In this document: one piece after another, positions 24,216 to 51,650 of the stretch
Position numbering within the stretch: the stretch's first letter is position 1
Layout of the letters: each line of letters opens with the position of its first letter
IMG/VR virus record: IMGVR_UViG_3300031555_004120
Location: 4,145-68,144 of that record
Direction: 5' to 3' (one strand)
DNA from: a virus
Taxonomy: Duplodnaviria; Caudoviricetes
DNA: 64,000 nucleotides
The notes under the pieces: generated by a model
What the model saw: the letters and a program-made list of their open reading frames with translations, nothing else
What the model was told of the DNA's origin: nothing
Database searches by the model: none
Made by a program: the position numbers and the translations under genes

Positions 24216-24935
24216 ACTGAAAAAGTAGAAGATAGTATTGTTATATTTAAACTGTGTGTTATTAATATCCTGGTGCATAACTACAATACCATGTAATCCA
24301 GGGTGCCTCAATCTCATTCTTTTATAACTGATAGGGAACTAAAAGGGTGATTAGTATTAGCTATAATCAATGAAACTATACTAAGAATGGTCTAACAAGC
24401 TAAAGTGTTGAGGTAGCATAGACTAATATGATGCTAATGCATTCGATCTTTCCTATATAATAATAGACGCTTCCTGTGGAAGAATAATCCTTGGACCTAT
24501 AGGACGGTAGGCAACCGACTATAATAATAAGGAAATTGCCAAATATATAGTGCTCGTGACTGTTTATCTGAAAAGGTAAACTATAAGAAAGATCGTGAAG
24601 TTCGAGTAGCCCAATCGAGCATGAAAACATAATATATATGTTTTCGGTAGAGGACCGAAAGGATTGAACATATCTGAATGGTGGGTGAAAGTTGGGAGTA
24701 TCATTCTCCTTAGAGCAATGGGCAGATTTTTATCTGCTGCGGTGAAAAGTTTATAATCGACGGGTTATGGGCTCAGATTCATCGTCTCTATAGCATAACA
24801 AGTAGTAGTATTAGCGAGTAGGCTGAAGAGTCATTGATAATGCATGGTTTAAATGTAATAATATTATCCAATACTGATTCTAAAATATTTTTATAAATGA
24901 AATAAAGATTCCCATAGGAAGAGATTCCTATGGGA
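24216..24935 (+). ncRNA. Large structured non-coding RNA candidate (~720 nt; ROOL/GOLLD size class)
   Basis: No credible ORF; locally higher GC; AACA-N6-TA promoter at 24205-24216; 5'/3' end pairing (24234-24252 with 24847-24875); many hairpins; terminator at 24910-24935. Confidence 0.7.
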
Positions 24936-27371: not shown

Positions 27372-27914
27372 ATGGCAGATGTAAATTTATCGGAAGTTGT
27401 AAAAGTAACAAATAATACTGACTTAAGTTTTGAGATCGGTGGAGTTAATGTTCCTATAGGACAAATTTTGGGAGAAAAGTTAGTTGCTTCTCTCATGGAA
27501 AGAATTACAGATGAAGAGTTTGAAGTTATTTATAAATATATGCATGATCAGACTTGGAAAAAAGATTATTGTGGGGAGAAAGTTATTCTGAATTATACAA
27601 AGAAGGATAATTATTATAATACTCAAAGTACACCACCAACTATTGCTACATATGCTGAAAATCTTTTATCAGAAAAAATGAAAGAAAGAATCAAAGCTAA
27701 AGTAGAAGAAATAACTTCATCTGAAGAATTCTTATCTAAGGCAGACCAGATTGCTCAAGAGATTGTAGATTATGCTACAGAAGGTTATAAGAAAGATATG
27801 AAAGCAAGAGTATATGAACGTCTTGTTGCTAATACTGTAGATGCATCTCCTTGTTATGGTGGTGTGGATTTGAGATCTATTATCTTTCAATGTATTAATG
27901 ATAGATTACGATAA
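27372..27914 (+). CDS. Hypothetical protein
   Basis: Start refined to ATG 27372 (AGGA RBS). Confidence 0.55.
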   Translation: MADVNLSEVVKVTNNTDLSFEIGGVNVPIGQILGEKLVASLMERITDEEFEVIYKYMHDQTWKKDYCGEKVILNYTKKDNYYNTQSTPPTIATYAENLLSEKMKERIKAKVEEITSSEEFLSKADQIAQEIVDYATEGYKKDMKARVYERLVANTVDASPCYGGVDLRSIIFQCINDRLR

Positions 27915-28052
27915 TATCAATATAATAATCCCTAGGGTATTATCTACCCTAGGGATATTAGTTTCATTTCAATTTCATAAAAATTCCCTCTAGAGATTTC
28001 TCTCTAGAGGGAACATTATTATTCTTTATAACCCGCTGCTATAATCAGCAAA

Positions 28053-46127: not shown

Positions 46128-46268
46128 ATGGATAAAAATAATATGGTGAGATTTATATCGTGTTCTCAAGCAGAATATGATAGTAGAACAAAAATAGATG
46201 ATATTGATAATCTATCTAAAGAAGATTCTAGTAATAAAAATAAAGAAGAGGAGAATAGCAAAGAATGA
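46128..46268 (+). CDS. Small hypothetical protein, 46 aa (not in ORF track)
   Basis: GGAG RBS; ATGA overlap with the DNA polymerase gene. Confidence 0.45.
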   Translation: MDKNNMVRFISCSQAEYDSRTKIDDIDNLSKEDSSNKNKEEENSKE

Positions 46269-48496
46269 TAATTTCAGAAAGTCCAACTCTAGTCAAATAT
46301 AAGGAGACTATGAGACAATGTATTCGTTTATATTATCCTGAAGCTCCCGATACAGATATCAATGCAGCTATTGATTATAGTATTAATAAGAGATTGCAGA
46401 ATGCAAATGCAAAAATATCCAATTCTTATAAGAGATATAAAGTTACAAAAACAGATCAATTCGGAAATCCATATCAAGAATATGTAGAACCTGTACAAAA
46501 TATAAGCTTACTTAAGTTGTCAGACTATATCTTAGCAAGAGAACCTATTGTAACAGCTTTTGGTACAATGTTTAAACATCATGGAACAGTCCCTAATCCG
46601 TTAATGGAAGTAGTACAATCATTCTTGGATAATAGAACTAAACATAAGAAGCAAATGTTTCAATTCCCTAAGGGTTCTGAGCAATTTGAGAAATTTAATT
46701 TGCTTCAAAGTTTGGATAAGATCGATGCTAATGGTATTTATGGATGTCTTGGACAGTATACAGCTTTAATATATAATCCAAACGTTGCCACTAGTATTAC
46801 ATCTCAGGGTAGAGCTTCTGTATCTTCTATGGCTCTTCATTTTGAAATGTTTCTTGCAGATAATGTAAAGTTTGGGTCTTTAAATGAACTTGTAGAATTT
46901 GTAAATCATATTTGTAGTGAAAGAAGACAGAGAATGTTTAACGATTCTCTTGTTCTTAATCATATTCCTACAAAAGAAGAATGCTTTGCAAAGCTTGTAT
47001 TAGATACAGGATATAGATGGGTACCTAATGATGCTGAACTGGATATTATTTGGAAGATTGTTAACAATCTTACTCAAGAAGATATTACAAGAGTTTATTA
47101 TAAGAATAATCTTTATGAGTTTGCAAGTAATACTTATGTATTTAATATTATCAAGAAAATGCTTAAGAATTTGCAAAGACCATTTTATACATCTGCAAAA
47201 GTTCCACCTGAAATTGCAGAAGATATAAATGATTTGAAAGATTTGATGATGGAATATGTATATTATAGATACATGTATATTGATAGAATTGATCGTTGTG
47301 ATAATATGATTAAATCGGTTACCATGGTATCAGATACAGACTCTACAATCATTTCTGTAGACGCTTGGTACAGATTTGTAGTAAATCAGATCAATGAAGA
47401 AGAGCTTCGTATTGCAAATTATTGTCCGGATCCAATTATGTTTTTGGATAAGAATGAAGATGGTGAATATGATTGTAAAGAATGGATGAATCATCTTAAT
47501 TTTGAACCTAAACAGTATGATTATGATTTTAATACAGATGAAATTGTAGAAATGGAAAGATTTAATAAACCTGAAGTATTGACAGCAAATGATAATGTAA
47601 GATATTCTATTATCAATATCATTGCATATGTTCTTGATAATACAGTCAATGATTATATGGTTAAATATTGTCAAAATACAAATTCTGTAAAAGAAGAATA
47701 TCATCCTGCTAAAGAATGCAAGGTATATGCAAAGAATGAATTCCTTTTTAAACGATTACTTATGACTTTGGTAAAGAAGAATTATGCATCAATAATGGAA
47801 GTTCAGGAAGGAAATATGGTTCCAGAAAAGAAACAGCTTGATGTTAAAGGTATTGAAATTCTTACTAAGTCTAGTAAAGCTTTAAGTACAAGAAAAGCTC
47901 TTCAAAAGATATTACTTGATGATATCCTTCGTGCACCTGTAATTGACCAGCTAAAATTTGTTAAAGATATTGCTATATTCCAGAAGCAAATTGTAGATTC
48001 TGTGAAATCTGGTAGTAAAGAATTCTATAAACCTGTAACTATAAAATCTATGTCTGCATATGATGACCCTATGCGTATTCAAGGTATTAAAGCATCTATT
48101 GCTTGGAATATGATTAAACCTGCTGATGTAGAAGCAATTAATTTGCAGGAAAGAAATGCTGTAGATATTGCTAAAGTTCAAATCGATATGGCAACTGTAG
48201 ATAGAATTAAAGATACTTTCCCAGAAGTATATGTTAATATCTTAAATGCTCTTGATGATGATACTTTCAAGACTTATGTAAAGAATCCTAAGACTGGTCA
48301 AAAAGATAAATTAACAAGTAATGAGATTGTTGCTGTAGCAATTCCTCTTGATACTGTACTTCCTGCATGGTTAGAACCATTTATCGATTACGATTCTATT
48401 CTTGCAGATAATCTTAATGGATTCCCTTATGAAAGTATTGGTATTAAGAGATTAGGTAAGAATAATATTAACTGTACAAATATAGTACAGTTATAA
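46265..48496 (+). CDS. Family B DNA polymerase, split-type subunit (motif B and motif C half)
   Basis: KIDANGIYG (motif B), SITSQGR, SDTDS (motif C), KKNYA and DVKGIE; no DxxSLYP motif A or 3'-5' exonuclease motifs in this ORF. Confidence 0.8.
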   Translation: MIISESPTLVKYKETMRQCIRLYYPEAPDTDINAAIDYSINKRLQNANAKISNSYKRYKVTKTDQFGNPYQEYVEPVQNISLLKLSDYILAREPIVTAFGTMFKHHGTVPNPLMEVVQSFLDNRTKHKKQMFQFPKGSEQFEKFNLLQSLDKIDANGIYGCLGQYTALIYNPNVATSITSQGRASVSSMALHFEMFLADNVKFGSLNELVEFVNHICSERRQRMFNDSLVLNHIPTKEECFAKLVLDTGYRWVPNDAELDIIWKIVNNLTQEDITRVYYKNNLYEFASNTYVFNIIKKMLKNLQRPFYTSAKVPPEIAEDINDLKDLMMEYVYYRYMYIDRIDRCDNMIKSVTMVSDTDSTIISVDAWYRFVVNQINEEELRIANYCPDPIMFLDKNEDGEYDCKEWMNHLNFEPKQYDYDFNTDEIVEMERFNKPEVLTANDNVRYSIINIIAYVLDNTVNDYMVKYCQNTNSVKEEYHPAKECKVYAKNEFLFKRLLMTLVKKNYASIMEVQEGNMVPEKKQLDVKGIEILTKSSKALSTRKALQKILLDDILRAPVIDQLKFVKDIAIFQKQIVDSVKSGSKEFYKPVTIKSMSAYDDPMRIQGIKASIAWNMIKPADVEAINLQERNAVDIAKVQIDMATVDRIKDTFPEVYVNILNALDDDTFKTYVKNPKTGQKDKLTSNEIVAVAIPLDTVLPAWLEPFIDYDSILADNLNGFPYESIGIKRLGKNNINCTNIVQL

Positions 48497-48586
48497 ATGC
48501 TAGATCAATAATATATTATAATATTGATAAAATAAGATTCTTGTTACATTGATATAATAGAAATACCAGAAAAGGAGGTATTAATT

Positions 48587-48724
48587 ATGGGACCGAATAT
48601 TGGTTTAATTACAGAACAGGGAGACCTTGGTTTAGGTTTTGATGTCCTTAATGAAAAGGACCAGTCTACTTATCAGAATGAAAGTAATAAGAATACTGAT
48701 AATGATGACAAGAATGATAAATAA
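48587..48724 (+). CDS. Small acidic protein, 45 aa (not in ORF track)
   Basis: AGGAGG RBS; ITEQ/LNEK/QNES motifs. Confidence 0.5.
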   Translation: MGPNIGLITEQGDLGLGFDVLNEKDQSTYQNESNKNTDNDDKNDK

Positions 48725-48790
48725 GATTCTTATAGAGTCCTTAGGAGTGAAATATCTCCTAAGGATTTTAGCTTATTTTTGGTAGCAATA

Positions 48791-48928
48791 ATTTCGTTAT
48801 ATGTTCAATAGGGAGAACGGTTGGCTGACACCCAGCAGAATTAAGAGAATTATGAGAGCTTAATCAAGACTTACCGGACAATGTCAAGTTTAGGTAGTAT
48901 AAGTGTGGTTCGATTCCACTAACGAAAT
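48791..48928 (+). ncRNA. tRNA-like RNA with GAC anticodon, 8-9/4 acceptor/T geometry and a ~68-nt variable region
   Basis: Acceptor ATTTCGTTA/TAACGAAAT; D arm GTTC-AATAGGGA-GAAC; anticodon arm GTTGG-CTGACAC-CCAGC; T arm GTGG-TTCGATT-CCAC; no encoded CCA. Confidence 0.65.
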
Positions 48929-48977
48929 ATTGATTACATAGATGATACTATATTAACTCATTTAAGGAGGAAAAAAG

Positions 48978-50084
48978 ATGAATGCATTATTGATTGGTGT
49001 TGGTGCAGCTGGAAATAAAGCAGTTGTAACAGCAATCGAAAACGGTACTATGAAAGTCGAGGATACAGCAATTGTAAACTCAACAAGTAGAGATTTCCCT
49101 AAAGAATATCAGGGAACAAAGATTATCTTATCTGCAACAGATACTGGTTGTGGTAAAGAGAGATCTGTAAGCAAGGCTTATACGAAGAAAGCTATCGGAG
49201 AAGGAAAGTTCAATTTCAATGAAAAGATGGCTCAGTATGCTACTGTTATTATTGTAACTTCTGTAGAAGGTGGAACAGGTTCAGGTGCTACTCCTACATT
49301 AGCTAAGTTCTTTAATAAAGTTTATACTAAGAACGTTCATATTATTGCTTTCACAGGCTTTGAAGATGATGTTAGAGGTCTTGCTAATACAGTAGATTTC
49401 TTTAAAGAAATTGATCCTGCTATTATTGTTCAGACTATCTCCAATGCATCTTTCTTACCTGCAGCTGGACAGAATAAGATGAAAGCAGAAGAATTGGCTA
49501 ACAGAGAAATGGCTGAAAGAGTAAGAGTTCTTATTGGTAAAGACTTCATTGATGGACGTCAGAATATTGATGATACTGATATCTTGAAGTTATCTAATAC
49601 TTCTGGTTATATGACCGTTGAAAAGAAGTGTTTTAGTAAATCTCTTGAAACTAGAGATGATTTTGAGAAGATTATCAAGAATATGATCTATAATACAGCT
49701 TCTATTAAGACGAGTGATCCTGCAGCTGTAAGACTTGGTGTTATTATGAATATCAGTCCTGCATCTGAAGATGCTATTGATGGTTCATTCAAGTCTCTTA
49801 AAGCAGCTTATGGTAATCCTTTTGAATTCTTTAGTCAGATTCAGTGGGATGGTAAAACAGAATATATTGCTTATATTGCATCCGGTATGAAGATGCCAAT
49901 TGAAGAGGTTCAGGCTGTATATGAAAGATATAAAGAACAGACAGCTAAGATTAATAAATCTGGTGATAGCTTCTTCTCTGCTATGGAAAGTATGGGAACA
50001 TTAGAGGAAGATTCTAAGTTCAATATGATTAAAGAAGTAGAGAAAGGTATGTCGATCGCAGATTTTCTTAGCGAAGATGACTAA
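48978..50084 (+). CDS. Tubulin/FtsZ-family GTPase (PhuZ/TubZ-like)
   Basis: IGVGAAGNKAV, GCGK, the signature EGGTGSGA and NIDDTD (T7 loop-like). Confidence 0.85.
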   Translation: MNALLIGVGAAGNKAVVTAIENGTMKVEDTAIVNSTSRDFPKEYQGTKIILSATDTGCGKERSVSKAYTKKAIGEGKFNFNEKMAQYATVIIVTSVEGGTGSGATPTLAKFFNKVYTKNVHIIAFTGFEDDVRGLANTVDFFKEIDPAIIVQTISNASFLPAAGQNKMKAEELANREMAERVRVLIGKDFIDGRQNIDDTDILKLSNTSGYMTVEKKCFSKSLETRDDFEKIIKNMIYNTASIKTSDPAAVRLGVIMNISPASEDAIDGSFKSLKAAYGNPFEFFSQIQWDGKTEYIAYIASGMKMPIEEVQAVYERYKEQTAKINKSGDSFFSAMESMGTLEEDSKFNMIKEVEKGMSIADFLSEDD

Positions 50085-51203: not shown

Positions 51204-51650
51204 ATGGGTAATGATGTAATTATTATTGATATTCTTGATAAGGTTTTAGAACCTGAATTCTGGACAATGATGATGGAAAGGAAAAGGTACACTGGACATT
51301 TGTACAGAAATAGTCCTTATGAGTCTGATGATTCTTGTGGTAACTGTGATGGAGCAAGATGTGATACTTGTAAAGAGATTATTATTCCAGCAGATATCGA
51401 ATGTTCTATTAAATGTGATAAATTGGAACAAATGTTACTTGATAAGGATGCACCTAAAGATGTAGCTCAATATTTTACTTATGACGATAGTTGTAAAATG
51501 TATTATAAAGGATATCATTTTGTATTTCCAACTGCAAAAATGTTAAAATCACAGTATCCTGAAAAATATGAAGAAATTAAAACTGCATGTATTGAAAAAG
51601 ATCGCAAAGAAAGAGAAGAGATTCAGAAGCGATTTCCAAAGAAAGCTTAA
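51204..51650 (+). CDS. Hypothetical protein with a Cys cluster (CGNC...CDTC)
   Basis: 148 aa; early-type promoter. Confidence 0.55.
   Translation: MGNDVIIIDILDKVLEPEFWTMMMERKRYTGHLYRNSPYESDDSCGNCDGARCDTCKEIIIPADIECSIKCDKLEQMLLDKDAPKDVAQYFTYDDSCKMYYKGYHFVFPTAKMLKSQYPEKYEEIKTACIEKDRKEREEIQKRFPKKA

What the first reader, a model, noticed from the sequence alone, without database searches (positions are those of the whole stretch)
48791..48928. tRNA-like RNA with Val(GAC) anticodon, non-canonical 8-9/4 stem geometry and a two-hairpin variable region
Seen: canonical D arm, anticodon arm (loop CTGACAC) and T loop (TTCGATT), but a 4-bp T stem, an acceptor helix of 8-9 bp extendable to about 13 bp with one bulge, no CCA, and about 68 nt between the anticodon and T arms that forms two hairpins (ATTAAG/CTTAAT and AGACTT/AAGTTT). 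Established: 8/4 allo-tRNAs with long variable arms have been reported from bacteria and mobile elements. Inference: an allo-tRNA-like molecule, a tRNA with an insertion, or a decoy against anticodon nucleases. It lies directly upstream of the tubulin gene and could instead be a cis-regulatory leader.
Basis: partly seen in the sequence, partly recalled or inferred. Interest (0 to 1): 0.7.

Follow-up and report, generated by a model that had tools for sequence, protein, structure and literature searches.

The report
Self-clamped tRNA-like phage RNA
A giant gut phage carries a conserved tRNA-shaped RNA with a 68-base extra domain that appears to pair with the RNA's own anticodon, so it is very probably a tRNA look-alike with an unknown job, not a working decoder.

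Summary
The element is real. Rfam's tRNA model matches 48793-48927 at 36.9 bits (cut-off 29), with a 63-nt insertion in the variable region. ARAGORN misses it, but calls tRNA-Val(GAC) once the insert is removed in silico.

Nine further copies come from related uncultured animal-gut jumbo phages. They keep every cloverleaf helix and two insert hairpins through compensatory changes: 22 of 40 pairs changed on both sides, 97% of cells paired.

New here: the "anticodon" loop covaries with the loop of the second insert hairpin, giving a 4-5 bp loop-loop helix. The anticodon:"codon" pairs seen are GAC:GUC, GAU:AUC, GGU:ACC, GAG:CUC and, in other samples, GGC:GCC.

- U33 is often C, position 37 is often C, and one lineage has an 8-nt loop.
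- The acceptor sequence and discriminator are not conserved.
- The acceptor helix continues into a leader-trailer helix.

I read it as a non-decoding tRNA mimic clamped on its own anticodon. It resembles a T-box Stem I-tRNA complex made within one molecule. Its function is unknown. Pairing between molecules, as in phi29 pRNA, is not excluded. I found no published description.

Allo-tRNA membership and the anticodon-nuclease decoy reading are not supported.

This scan has noted other giant-armed tRNA-like phage RNAs on other DNA. None is a sequence look-alike of this one.

The parts
48733..48770 (+). Terminator-like hairpin of the upstream 45-aa ORF. It marks the 5' boundary of the intergenic region that holds the element.
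   Evidence: 15-pair stem followed by a T run. Conserved in all relatives.
48781..48792 (+). Leader strand of the extended closing helix. It pairs with 48927-48938.
   Evidence: flank duplex -5.8 kcal/mol against -1.6 shuffled. Across 9 copies the sum is -45.2 against -11.5, and 0 of 1000 shuffles reach it.
48793..48799 (+). Acceptor stem, 5' strand (7 bp with 48920-48926)
   Evidence: all 7 pairs show changes on both sides, 100% paired.
48800..48802 (+). Three-nucleotide linker UAU at tRNA positions 8-9 (one more than canonical). Invariant.
48803..48818 (+). D arm: 4-bp stem with an 8-nt loop holding A14, G18, G19 and A21
   Evidence: stem invariant
48820..48836 (+). Anticodon-like arm: 5-bp stem (48820-48824 with 48832-48836) and 7-nt loop CUGACAC (48825-48831)
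   Evidence: 2 stem pairs with double changes. Loop variants.
48826..48830 (+). Loop-loop helix, strand 1 (tRNA positions 33-37, UGACA). Pairs with 48882-48886.
   Evidence: Natural variant 48828 A>G, compensated by 48884 T>C.
48840..48864 (+). Insert hairpin 1: 6-bp stem and a 13-nt purine-rich loop (48846-48858) that is largely conserved
   Evidence: (2 pairs with double changes)
48865..48868 (+). Invariant junction between the two insert hairpins
48869..48898 (+). Insert hairpin 2. Outer helix 48869-48875 with 48893-48898 (one bulged U). Inner helix 48876-48879 with 48888-48891. Loop 48880-48887.
   Evidence: 5 of 9 pairs with double changes
48882..48886 (+). Loop-loop helix, strand 2 (UGUCA). 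It holds the codon-like GUC followed by A.
48899..48904 (+). Invariant junction AUAAGU between insert hairpin 2 and the T stem
48905..48919 (+). T arm: 4-bp stem and canonical 7-nt T loop
   Evidence: 3 of 4 pairs with double changes. L031 and L034 have 5 bp.
48920..48927 (+). Acceptor stem 3' strand (48920-48926) and discriminator-position A (48927), which can pair with U48792. No CCA follows.
48928..48938 (+). Trailer strand of the extended closing helix
48943..48951 (+). Extended -10-like motif TGATACTAT between the element and the tubulin ribosome-binding site. It probably belongs to the tubulin gene, not to the RNA.
   Evidence: the same motif sits before the genes starting near 51204, 52860 and 57135. 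Conserved in relatives. Its function is inferred.

Best explanation
Window 48793-48927, plus a paired leader and trailer, encodes a small structured RNA that evolved from a tRNA gene and no longer decodes codons.

It keeps the tRNA body. The acceptor/T-arm stack, the D arm and the D-loop/T-loop elbow nucleotides are all present. In place of the 4-5 nt variable loop it has a 68-nt domain of two hairpins.

The second hairpin has about 10 stacked pairs, roughly the length of the D-stem plus anticodon-stem stack. I infer that it runs back along the anticodon arm. Its loop presents a codon-like triplet followed by an A. That stretch forms 4-5 Watson-Crick pairs with positions 33/34-37 of the RNA's own anticodon loop.

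The result is a tRNA clamped on its own anticodon. It would be a one-molecule analogue of a tRNA held by the specifier of a T-box Stem I, or of a tRNA engaged with a codon.

Shown:
- The tRNA-like fold and the conserved insert.
- The loop-loop covariation.
- Loss of decoding hallmarks: U33, a purine at 37, and a 7-nt loop.
- No conservation of the acceptor sequence or the discriminator.
- A closing helix that runs on beyond the acceptor stem.

Inferred:
- The pairing is within one molecule.
- The RNA is cut out of a longer early transcript by host tRNA-processing enzymes. RNase P would measure from the elbow and RNase Z would cut the 3' end, perhaps after RNase III cuts the leader-trailer helix.
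- It then acts in trans as a tRNA-shaped mimic or scaffold for a tRNA-recognising host or phage factor. The factor is unknown.

My odds: about 0.9 that it is a selected structured RNA with this loop-loop pairing, about 0.8 that it is not a decoder, and about 0.35-0.4 for the intramolecular, trans-acting mimic scenario as a whole.
For: - Rfam tRNA match of 36.9 bits over the full model, with a 63-nt insert. It is the only tRNA-type hit in the 68-kb record.
- With the insert removed in silico, ARAGORN calls tRNA-Val(GAC).
- Ten distinct sequences from ten loci (three further loci repeat three of them) keep the whole fold. RNAalifold shows 19 of 35 pairs with double changes.
- With the loop-loop helix added, 97.2% of cells pair against 83% when shuffled. 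22 pairs have double changes. No shuffle of 500 reached the observed value, and slid controls give 30-44%.
- Loop-loop helix alone: the three central pairs form in 10 of 10 sequences. Three of 5 pairs have double changes and one pair has three pair types. Slid controls give 12-44%.
- An unbiased scan of all 4-bp stacks returns only the cloverleaf helices, the two insert hairpins, this helix and one stray.
- Strain-level variants in other samples repeat the pattern. 48828 A>G is present in all four runs laid. 48884 T>C accompanies it in two of them, giving A-U to G-C through a G.U intermediate.
- Loop variants are CUGACAC, CUGACCC, CCGACGC, CUGAUCC, CCGAUCC, CCGACAC, CCGGUCC and an 8-nt loop.
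- Conservation is concentrated in the 8-9 linker, the D stem, the T loop and both insert junctions. No acceptor column is invariant and the discriminator varies.
- Leader and trailer pair beyond the acceptor stem.
- T-box Stem I carries a trinucleotide complementary to the anticodon and tracks the anticodon/D-stem stack (PMC4919913). This supports the geometric analogy only.
Against: - No data show the ends, processing, CCA addition, abundance or partners of the RNA. The metatranscriptome material is contigs only and cannot show a transcript.
- Covariation cannot tell pairing within one molecule from pairing between two copies.
- Steric feasibility of the intramolecular clamp rests on counting stacked pairs, not on a model.
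- One sample variant (48827 G>T, run X8) would break the central G-C pair.
- Only about 8 independent lineages exist, all closely related (tubulin 73-98% identical).
- The leader strand overlaps a promoter-like motif that also occurs in a relative without the element. Part of the leader-trailer complementarity may therefore not be in the RNA.
- The long closing helix would hinder RNase P.
Confidence: 0.5

Rival explanations
1. Same RNA, but the two complementary loops pair between molecules. The anticodon loop of one copy pairs with the insert loop of the next, building dimers or closed rings.
For: - Covariation fits pairing in trans as well as in cis.
- Two lineages have the palindromic GAUC in both loops.
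- phi29 pRNA multimerises through two complementary loops (PMC2241910).
- The same phage carries a ROOL RNA. From my own recollection, not checked here, ROOL is reported to self-assemble.
- Earlier notes of this scan describe other giant-armed tRNA-like phage RNAs with self-complementary tips (unchecked).
Against: - The length of hairpin 2 matches the length of the D/anticodon stack, which suggests an intramolecular reach. This is inference.
- Most lineages have non-palindromic loops, so simple self-kissing of one loop is excluded.
- No packaging system of the phi29 type is expected in a jumbo phage with a contractile tail.
Confidence: 0.2
2. A cis-acting processing or stability module. The tRNA-like fold recruits RNase P and RNase Z (and RNase III on the flanking helix) to cut a read-through early transcript between the small ORF and the tubulin gene, or to cap an mRNA end. 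The excised RNA itself has no job, and the clamp merely keeps it out of translation.
For: - The position is fixed between the small ORF's terminator and the tubulin gene in all 13 loci that hold the element.
- No terminator follows the element.
- RNA-library contigs run from about 48543/48559 across the element into tubulin (weak).
- Leader and trailer form a long helix.
- tRNA-like RNase P substrates inside other RNAs are known, for example M. smegmatis YrlA (PMC4201824).
Against: - A processing signal needs only the acceptor/T-arm half. Here the D stem, the insert junctions, the hairpin 1 loop and the loop-loop helix are all under selection.
- Close relatives express the same gene pair without the element.
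- A promoter-like motif shared with other genes lies downstream of the element, so tubulin probably does not depend on it.
Confidence: 0.18
3. A working decoder tRNA. The insert would be tolerated on the ribosome, or removed like an intron, and the anticodon has switched among Val, Ile, Thr, Leu and Ala during phage evolution.
For: - Full cloverleaf above the Rfam cut-off.
- With the insert deleted, ARAGORN accepts it as tRNA-Val.
- All anticodons seen are G34-type triplets that read real codons.
- From my own knowledge, introns of yeast pre-tRNAs also pair with the anticodon.
Against: - U33 is C in 4 of 10 copies.
- Position 37 is a pyrimidine in 5 of 10 copies.
- One lineage has an 8-nt loop.
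- The acceptor sequence and discriminator are unconstrained, so no stable synthetase identity is apparent.
- The first pair is U-A or A-U.
- The insert sits in the variable region, where bacteria have no known splicing. It matches no ribozyme or intron family.
- Related phages are tRNA-poor and lack any tRNA at this locus.
Confidence: 0.06
4. A decoy or bait for a host anticodon nuclease or another tRNA-targeting defence.
For: - Phages are known to counter tRNA-cleaving defences with their own tRNAs. This is general knowledge, and PMC2610378 appeared.
- The fast turnover of the loop sequence could reflect an arms race.
Against: - Anticodon nucleases read specific loop sequences. Here the loop differs between near-identical phages and appears base-paired, which should hide it.
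- No defence or repair genes were found nearby. RtcB is absent from the 68-kb fragment, which is weak evidence.
Confidence: 0.06

Closest known systems
Canonical bacterial and phage tRNA (Rfam RF00005), especially class II tRNAs with long variable arms
   Same: Acceptor, D, anticodon and T arms; elbow nucleotides G18, G19 and the UUCGA T loop; extra structure emerging from the variable region.
   Different: - The variable region is 63-68 nt with two hairpins, against 10-24 nt with one hairpin in class II.
- A 3-nt linker at positions 8-9.
- The anticodon loop lacks conserved U33 and a purine at 37, varies in length, and pairs with the insert.
- No conserved identity elements.
- The T stem is 4 bp in most copies.
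- The acceptor helix continues into the flanks.
T-box riboswitch Stem I bound to tRNA (PMC4919913)
   Same: An RNA arm presents a codon-like trinucleotide that pairs with the anticodon while lying along the anticodon/D-stem stack. In every copy here the triplet is followed by an A. From my own recollection, T-box specifiers are also followed by a conserved purine.
   Different: - Here both partners are in one transcript.
- No K-turn, distal T-loop platform or antiterminator was detected, and there is no Rfam T-box hit.
- There is no regulated downstream amino-acid gene.
- Pairing also takes in positions 37 and sometimes 33.
Stable tRNA-like RNAs of unknown function in phage tRNA regions (T4 species 1 and 2 RNAs; T5 tRNA-like RNAs). 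Recalled from memory and from earlier notes of this scan.
   Same: Phage-encoded, tRNA-derived, non-decoding small RNAs with extra domains and no known function.
   Different: - No sequence relation was tested.
- Those genes sit in tRNA clusters. This one is a lone gene in a tRNA-poor phage.
- I know of no report of anticodon-insert pairing for them.
Bacterial and phage Y RNA-like YrlA (PMC4201824)
   Same: A non-coding RNA with a tRNA-like D arm, T arm and acceptor-like stem. Some are cut by RNase P and receive CCA. Found in 22 phages.
   Different: - In YrlA the RNA ends leave through the Ro-binding stem, and the acceptor-like stem is closed.
- The YrlA gene lies next to a Ro60 (TROVE) gene. 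No TROVE gene was found in this record.
- I did not see the GNCGAA motif when reading the window copy.
allo-tRNAs and (8/4) tRNAs (PMC5389517)
   Same: A shortened 4-bp T stem with a possible 8th acceptor pair in the window lineage. Also an extra arm and a source in rumen or gut microbiomes.
   Different: - Normal D arm and a 5-bp anticodon stem.
- Variable discriminator.
- Two-hairpin insert.
- 7/5 relatives in the same family.
phi29 prohead RNA (PMC2241910)
   Same: Two loops of about 4 complementary bases, together with a long closing helix formed by the two RNA ends.
   Different: - pRNA is not tRNA-like.
- Its loops pair between molecules on a phi29-type packaging motor.
- No relation in sequence or genomic context.

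Membership tests
Elongator tRNA (RF00005) | Cloverleaf scoring above the Rfam gathering threshold | tested here: met
   36.9 bits against 29, model positions 1-71
Elongator tRNA (RF00005) | 7-nt anticodon loop with U33 and a purine at 37 | tested here: not met
   Met in the window copy (CUGACAC). Across the family, C33 occurs in 4 of 10, a pyrimidine at 37 in 5 of 10, and an 8-nt loop in 2 of 10.
Elongator tRNA (RF00005) | Variable region of 4-5 nt (class I) or a single arm of about 10-24 nt (class II) | tested here: not met
   68 nt with two hairpins. ARAGORN finds no gene unless the insert is removed.
Elongator tRNA (RF00005) | Aminoacylation, and a CCA end either encoded or added | not testable with these tools
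   No encoded CCA. The acceptor sequence and discriminator are not conserved.
allo-tRNA / (8/4) tRNA | 12-bp acceptor branch split 8/4 or 9/3 | tested here: inconclusive
   The window lineage has 7 bp plus a possible -1:73 pair, with a 4-bp T stem. L031 and L034 are 7/5. The helix continues into the flanks, so the true 5' end is unknown.
allo-tRNA / (8/4) tRNA | tRNA-Sec-like long D stem with a tetraloop, and a longer anticodon stem | tested here: not met
   4-bp D stem with an 8-nt loop; 5-bp anticodon stem. Definition.
allo-tRNA / (8/4) tRNA | Long V-arm plus G73 or U73 (serine identity) | tested here: not met
   The discriminator is A in the window and A, U or G across the family. The insert is a two-hairpin domain.
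T-box leader | Specifier trinucleotide complementary to a tRNA anticodon | tested here: met
   Met in cis only: the triplet in the hairpin 2 loop follows the element's own anticodon.
T-box leader | Stem I K-turn and distal platform, T-box sequence and antiterminator, with a match to the Rfam T-box model | tested here: not met
   No T-box hit at E up to 10 in 48650-49050. No terminator between the element and tubulin.
YrlA / bacterial Y RNA | Gene within a few kb of a Ro60 (TROVE) gene on the same strand | tested here: not met
   No TROVE match in the 68-kb record. The record is only about 26% of the genome.
YrlA / bacterial Y RNA | RNA ends leave through a Ro-binding stem and the acceptor-like stem is closed by a loop | tested here: not met
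   Here the ends leave through the acceptor helix. Description of YrlA.
phi29-type pRNA | Two loops that pair between molecules to form a ring on the packaging motor | not testable with these tools
   Complementary loops are present. Whether they pair in trans is unknown. No sequence or context relation was found.
tmRNA | tRNA-like domain without an anticodon arm, plus a tag reading frame | tested here: not met
   ARAGORN finds no tmRNA. A full anticodon arm is present.

The most novel reading that the evidence does not exclude
The RNA is a natural all-RNA mimic of a codon-engaged tRNA: a tRNA that carries its own codon. As such it could occupy machines that inspect the codon-anticodon helix or the tRNA body without any mRNA, such as a ribosomal tRNA site, a T-box-like sensor or a tRNA-surveillance factor. 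That would let an early phage transcript block or reprogram host translation or tRNA sensing.

Alternatively, the same two loops could link copies head to tail into a tRNA-based ring or fibre.

Either reading would be a use of the tRNA fold that I could not find described.
Probability: 0.12. Interest if true: 0.9.

Novelty: new variant of a known kind. Interest (0 to 1): 0.72.

Why it matters
tRNA-shaped RNAs that do not decode are known in phages, but their jobs are mostly unknown. Standard gene finders miss them, as ARAGORN does here.

This family gives an unusually clear structural clue. A domain grown out of the variable loop tracks the RNA's own anticodon through at least five independent compensatory switches.

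If the clamp is intramolecular, it is a natural one-molecule model of anticodon recognition by RNA, as in T-box Stem I or in codon reading. It would also be a candidate tool by which phages engage tRNA-handling machinery.

If the pairing is intermolecular, it is a new self-assembling RNA built on a tRNA scaffold.

Either way it is small (about 135-160 nt) and easy to make. Probing, native gels and cryo-EM could test it directly. It also shows that tRNA searches which tolerate large variable-region inserts can uncover hidden RNA genes in uncultured jumbo phages.

Tried and rejected
- ARAGORN on the window and six relatives found no tRNA. The 'gathering' Rfam scan of the whole window also missed the element and found only ROOL. 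Only the local permissive scan found it.
- Other Rfam families within 48650-49050 were chance-level hits only. No ribozyme, T-box, tmRNA or Y RNA appeared.
- Searches for more family members failed:
  - Exact-pattern scans of viral contigs and genome contigs found nothing.
  - The metagenome-contig scan gave 20 chance hits in coding DNA.
  - The single-protein locus search found nothing.
  - A profile search gave 26 IMG/VR relatives with tubulin at 67% identity or less. None has the element or a tRNA near tubulin.
  - Five whole records searched with model R1 gave nothing.
- The weak model hit at window 27895-27982 is a terminator-like hairpin region, not a second copy.
- A search for further tertiary pairs gave only singleton-driven noise, plus one stray 4-bp stack at columns 53-56 with 87-90.
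- TROVE, RNase III, CCA-adding enzyme and RtcB were not found in the 68-kb record. This is uninformative because the record is about a quarter of the genome.
- The RNA evidence is contigs only. Two metatranscriptome runs from one study cover 48543-49047 and 48559-49286. This shows neither transcription nor ends, and DNA carry-over is possible.
- The simple sigma-70 scan gave no convincing promoter for the element itself. The hit at 48825-48853 lies inside the RNA and the count is at chance level.
- The phage collection (INPHARED) had no DNA match.
- Six literature searches found no description of this architecture.
Full report
**1. What is at the coordinates**

The window is part of a 68-kb IMG/VR virus record. 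CheckV estimates it at about 26% complete, so the whole genome would be a jumbo phage of roughly 250 kb.

The stretch 48791-48928 lies between two features. Upstream is a terminator-like hairpin (48733-48770) that ends a conserved 45-aa ORF. Downstream is a tubulin/FtsZ-family gene (48978-50084; Pfam Tubulin). A divergent family-B DNA polymerase gene lies further upstream.

ARAGORN finds no tRNA anywhere in the window. The default Rfam scan reports only a ROOL RNA at 24245-24851. A permissive local Rfam scan matches the tRNA model end to end at 48793-48927. The score is 36.9 bits against a gathering score of 29, with E 2.5e-6 and a 63-nt insertion in the variable region. It is the only tRNA-type hit in the record.

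When I removed the insert in a script, ARAGORN called tRNA-Val(GAC). So the body is a proper tRNA body, and the insert is what hides it.

- D arm, anticodon arm and T loop.
- 4-bp T stem.
- 9-bp acceptor helix.
- No CCA.
- A 68-nt gap between the anticodon arm and the T arm.
- The first insert hairpin.

The second insert hairpin was drawn in a register that relatives do not keep.

**2. Relatives and covariation**

The tubulin protein has hundreds of homologues in metagenomes. I fetched DNA around ten of them.

Thirteen loci with 73-88% tubulin identity carry the element at the same place. Together with the window they give ten distinct sequences. Three loci lack it: L030 (77%), L006 (73%) and L007 (69%). 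In those the tubulin gene follows the small ORF or other genes directly.

None of the 26 more distant IMG/VR relatives has the element or any tRNA beside tubulin. Exact-pattern scans of three public collections found no further members. The family is therefore confined to one subclade.

That subclade comes from animal, largely bovine, gut and faeces metagenomes. The DNA occurs in runs from 14 studies.

RNAalifold on the ten sequences returns the full cloverleaf plus two hairpins in the variable region. Of 35 pairs, 19 show changes on both sides.

On the model-based alignment A6 the counts are as follows:
- 97.2% of cells pair, against 83% after shuffling and 30-44% when partners are slid.
- All seven acceptor pairs covary.
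- Three of four T-stem pairs covary.
- Two anticodon-stem pairs covary.
- Two pairs of hairpin 1 and five of hairpin 2 covary.

The thermodynamic z-score of the single sequence is unremarkable (-0.43). The evidence for structure is therefore comparative.

**3. The anticodon loop pairs with the insert**

The "anticodon" differs between close relatives. It is GAC, GAU, GGU or GAG, the last within an 8-nt loop. Position 33 is C in four of ten copies, and position 37 is a pyrimidine in five.

Each change is mirrored in the loop of insert hairpin 2, which reads GUC, AUC, ACC and CUC respectively. An A follows the triplet in every copy. The base before the triplet tracks position 37: C-G, A-U or G.U.

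Counted as a helix (alignment columns 37-41 with 95-99), the results are:
- The three central pairs form in all ten sequences.
- Three of five pairs have double changes.
- One pair shows three pair types.
- Sliding the register drops pairing to 12-44%.

A blind scan of every possible 4-bp stack in the alignment returns only the known helices, this one and a single stray.

Independent support comes from other samples. All four runs laid on the window carry 48828 A>G, the middle anticodon base. Two DNA runs also carry 48884 T>C, the middle of the GUC triplet, giving GGC:GCC. The two RNA-library runs show the G.U intermediate.

I count at least five separate compensatory events. One variant (48827 G>T in run X8) would break a pair.

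**4. Other anatomy**

Conservation is concentrated in these places:
- The 3-nt linker at positions 8-9.
- The D stem.
- G26.
- The T loop.
- The two junctions of the insert, all of whose columns are invariant.

About half of the 13-nt purine-rich loop of hairpin 1 is also invariant. No acceptor-stem column is invariant, and the discriminator is A, U or G.

Two relatives (L031, L034) have a normal 5-bp T stem and a 7-bp acceptor. The others, including the window, have lost one T-stem pair.

In every copy the helix continues beyond the acceptor stem, because leader and trailer pair for roughly 9-11 more bp. The summed duplex energy is -45.2 against -11.5 kcal/mol for shuffles, and 0 of 1000 shuffles reach it. 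Own flanks pair better than flanks from other lineages.

**5. How it is made (inferred, unresolved)**

No terminator follows the element. An extended -10-like motif, TGATACTAT, lies between it and the tubulin ribosome-binding site. The same motif recurs before at least three other genes, so tubulin probably has its own promoter.

The leader strand overlaps a TGGTAA-type motif. In the element-free relative L030, that motif sits directly before the tubulin ribosome-binding site. Two routes are therefore possible:
- The element starts a few bases before the acceptor stem.
- It is reached by read-through from the small ORF's promoter.

Contigs from two metatranscriptome runs span 48543/48559 through the element into tubulin. 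Being contigs, they prove neither transcription nor ends.

**6. Interpretation**

Several features argue against a decoding tRNA:
- A drifting, paired anticodon loop.
- Loss of U33 and of a purine at 37.
- A variable loop length.
- No conserved acceptor identity.
- A closing helix that runs into the flanks.

They also argue against a decoy for a sequence-specific anticodon nuclease.

The conserved elbow, core and insert junctions argue against a decaying pseudogene or a bare processing signal.

I think the most likely picture is a tRNA-derived small RNA whose variable-region domain folds back on the anticodon arm. Hairpin 2 has about ten stacked pairs, similar to the D-stem plus anticodon-stem stack. 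Its loop would hold the anticodon in a short codon-anticodon-like helix.

The closest mechanistic analogue is T-box Stem I. Its specifier trinucleotide pairs with the anticodon while the stem tracks the same stack (PMC4919913). Here both partners are in one molecule.

The fold keeps what RNase P, RNase Z and the CCA-adding enzyme recognise. So I infer excision from a longer transcript and action in trans on some tRNA-recognising factor. That last step is a guess.

Pairing between copies is equally compatible with the covariation. phi29 pRNA does this (PMC2241910).

**7. Comparison with known families**

It is not an allo-tRNA. It has a normal D arm and a 5-bp anticodon stem, the discriminator varies, and the family includes 7/5 members (definition from PMC5389517).

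It is not a YrlA/Y RNA. The ends leave through the acceptor helix, and no TROVE gene was found.

It is not a T-box, a tmRNA or any other Rfam family.

It shares its general kind with the stable tRNA-like RNAs of T4 and T5. I recall those from memory and did not test the relation.

Earlier notes of this scan describe "giant-armed" tRNA-Asp-like RNAs in other phages and in Bacteroidota. None is a sequence look-alike of this element, and I did not examine them.

Six full-text searches found no paper describing a tRNA-like RNA whose anticodon pairs with its own variable-region insert. That is absence from one library, not proof of novelty.

**8. Verdict**

- The element is a real, selected, non-canonical tRNA-like RNA with a newly recognised loop-loop interaction.
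- Its function is unknown.
- The family is small and known only from metagenomes, so all mechanistic steps beyond the fold remain inference.

Noticed in passing
window 24245-24851 (+): Full-length ROOL RNA (Rfam RF03087, 221 bits, model positions 1-574) in the same phage fragment, about 24 kb from the tRNA-like gene.
   Followed up: partly
window 48943, 51171, 52823, 57083 (+): The motif TGATACTAT (extended -10-like) recurs 20-45 nt before the start codons of several genes, including tubulin. It may define one promoter class of this phage.
   Followed up: partly
window 48587-48724 (+); L030 2776-2910; L002 2596-2733: A small acidic ORF of 44-51 aa, with a conserved I-T-E-Q-G-D-L-G-L-G motif, is kept upstream of tubulin in all relatives, with or without the tRNA-like gene. 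It has no Pfam match.
   Followed up: no
window 46265-48496 (+) compared with L002 741-2504, L035 783-2516 and L035 1-505: The divergent family-B DNA polymerase gene is called at 743 aa in the window and in L005, but at 577-597 aa in other relatives. L035 has a NUMOD4 (homing-endonuclease-type) ORF just upstream. This suggests a split gene or one interrupted by a mobile element in some lineages.
   Followed up: no
window 48550-48558 (+): A near-consensus extended -10 (TGATATAAT) lies before the small ORF. RNA-library contigs from two runs of one study begin at 48543 and 48559, while DNA contigs continue across. This is only a weak hint of a transcription start.
   Followed up: partly
window 48978-50084 (+): The tubulin/FtsZ-family protein has 721 homologues at E of 0.001 or better, many on contigs of 100-300 kb from animal-gut metagenomes. 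One contig was binned into an Acholeplasmatales MAG. This points to a large, mostly undescribed jumbo-phage group.
   Followed up: partly
window 48894 (run X8 variant): One sample carries a TA insertion after 48894, in the 3' strand of the outer helix of hairpin 2, together with 48827 G>T. This variant may have a shifted register that I did not resolve.
   Followed up: no
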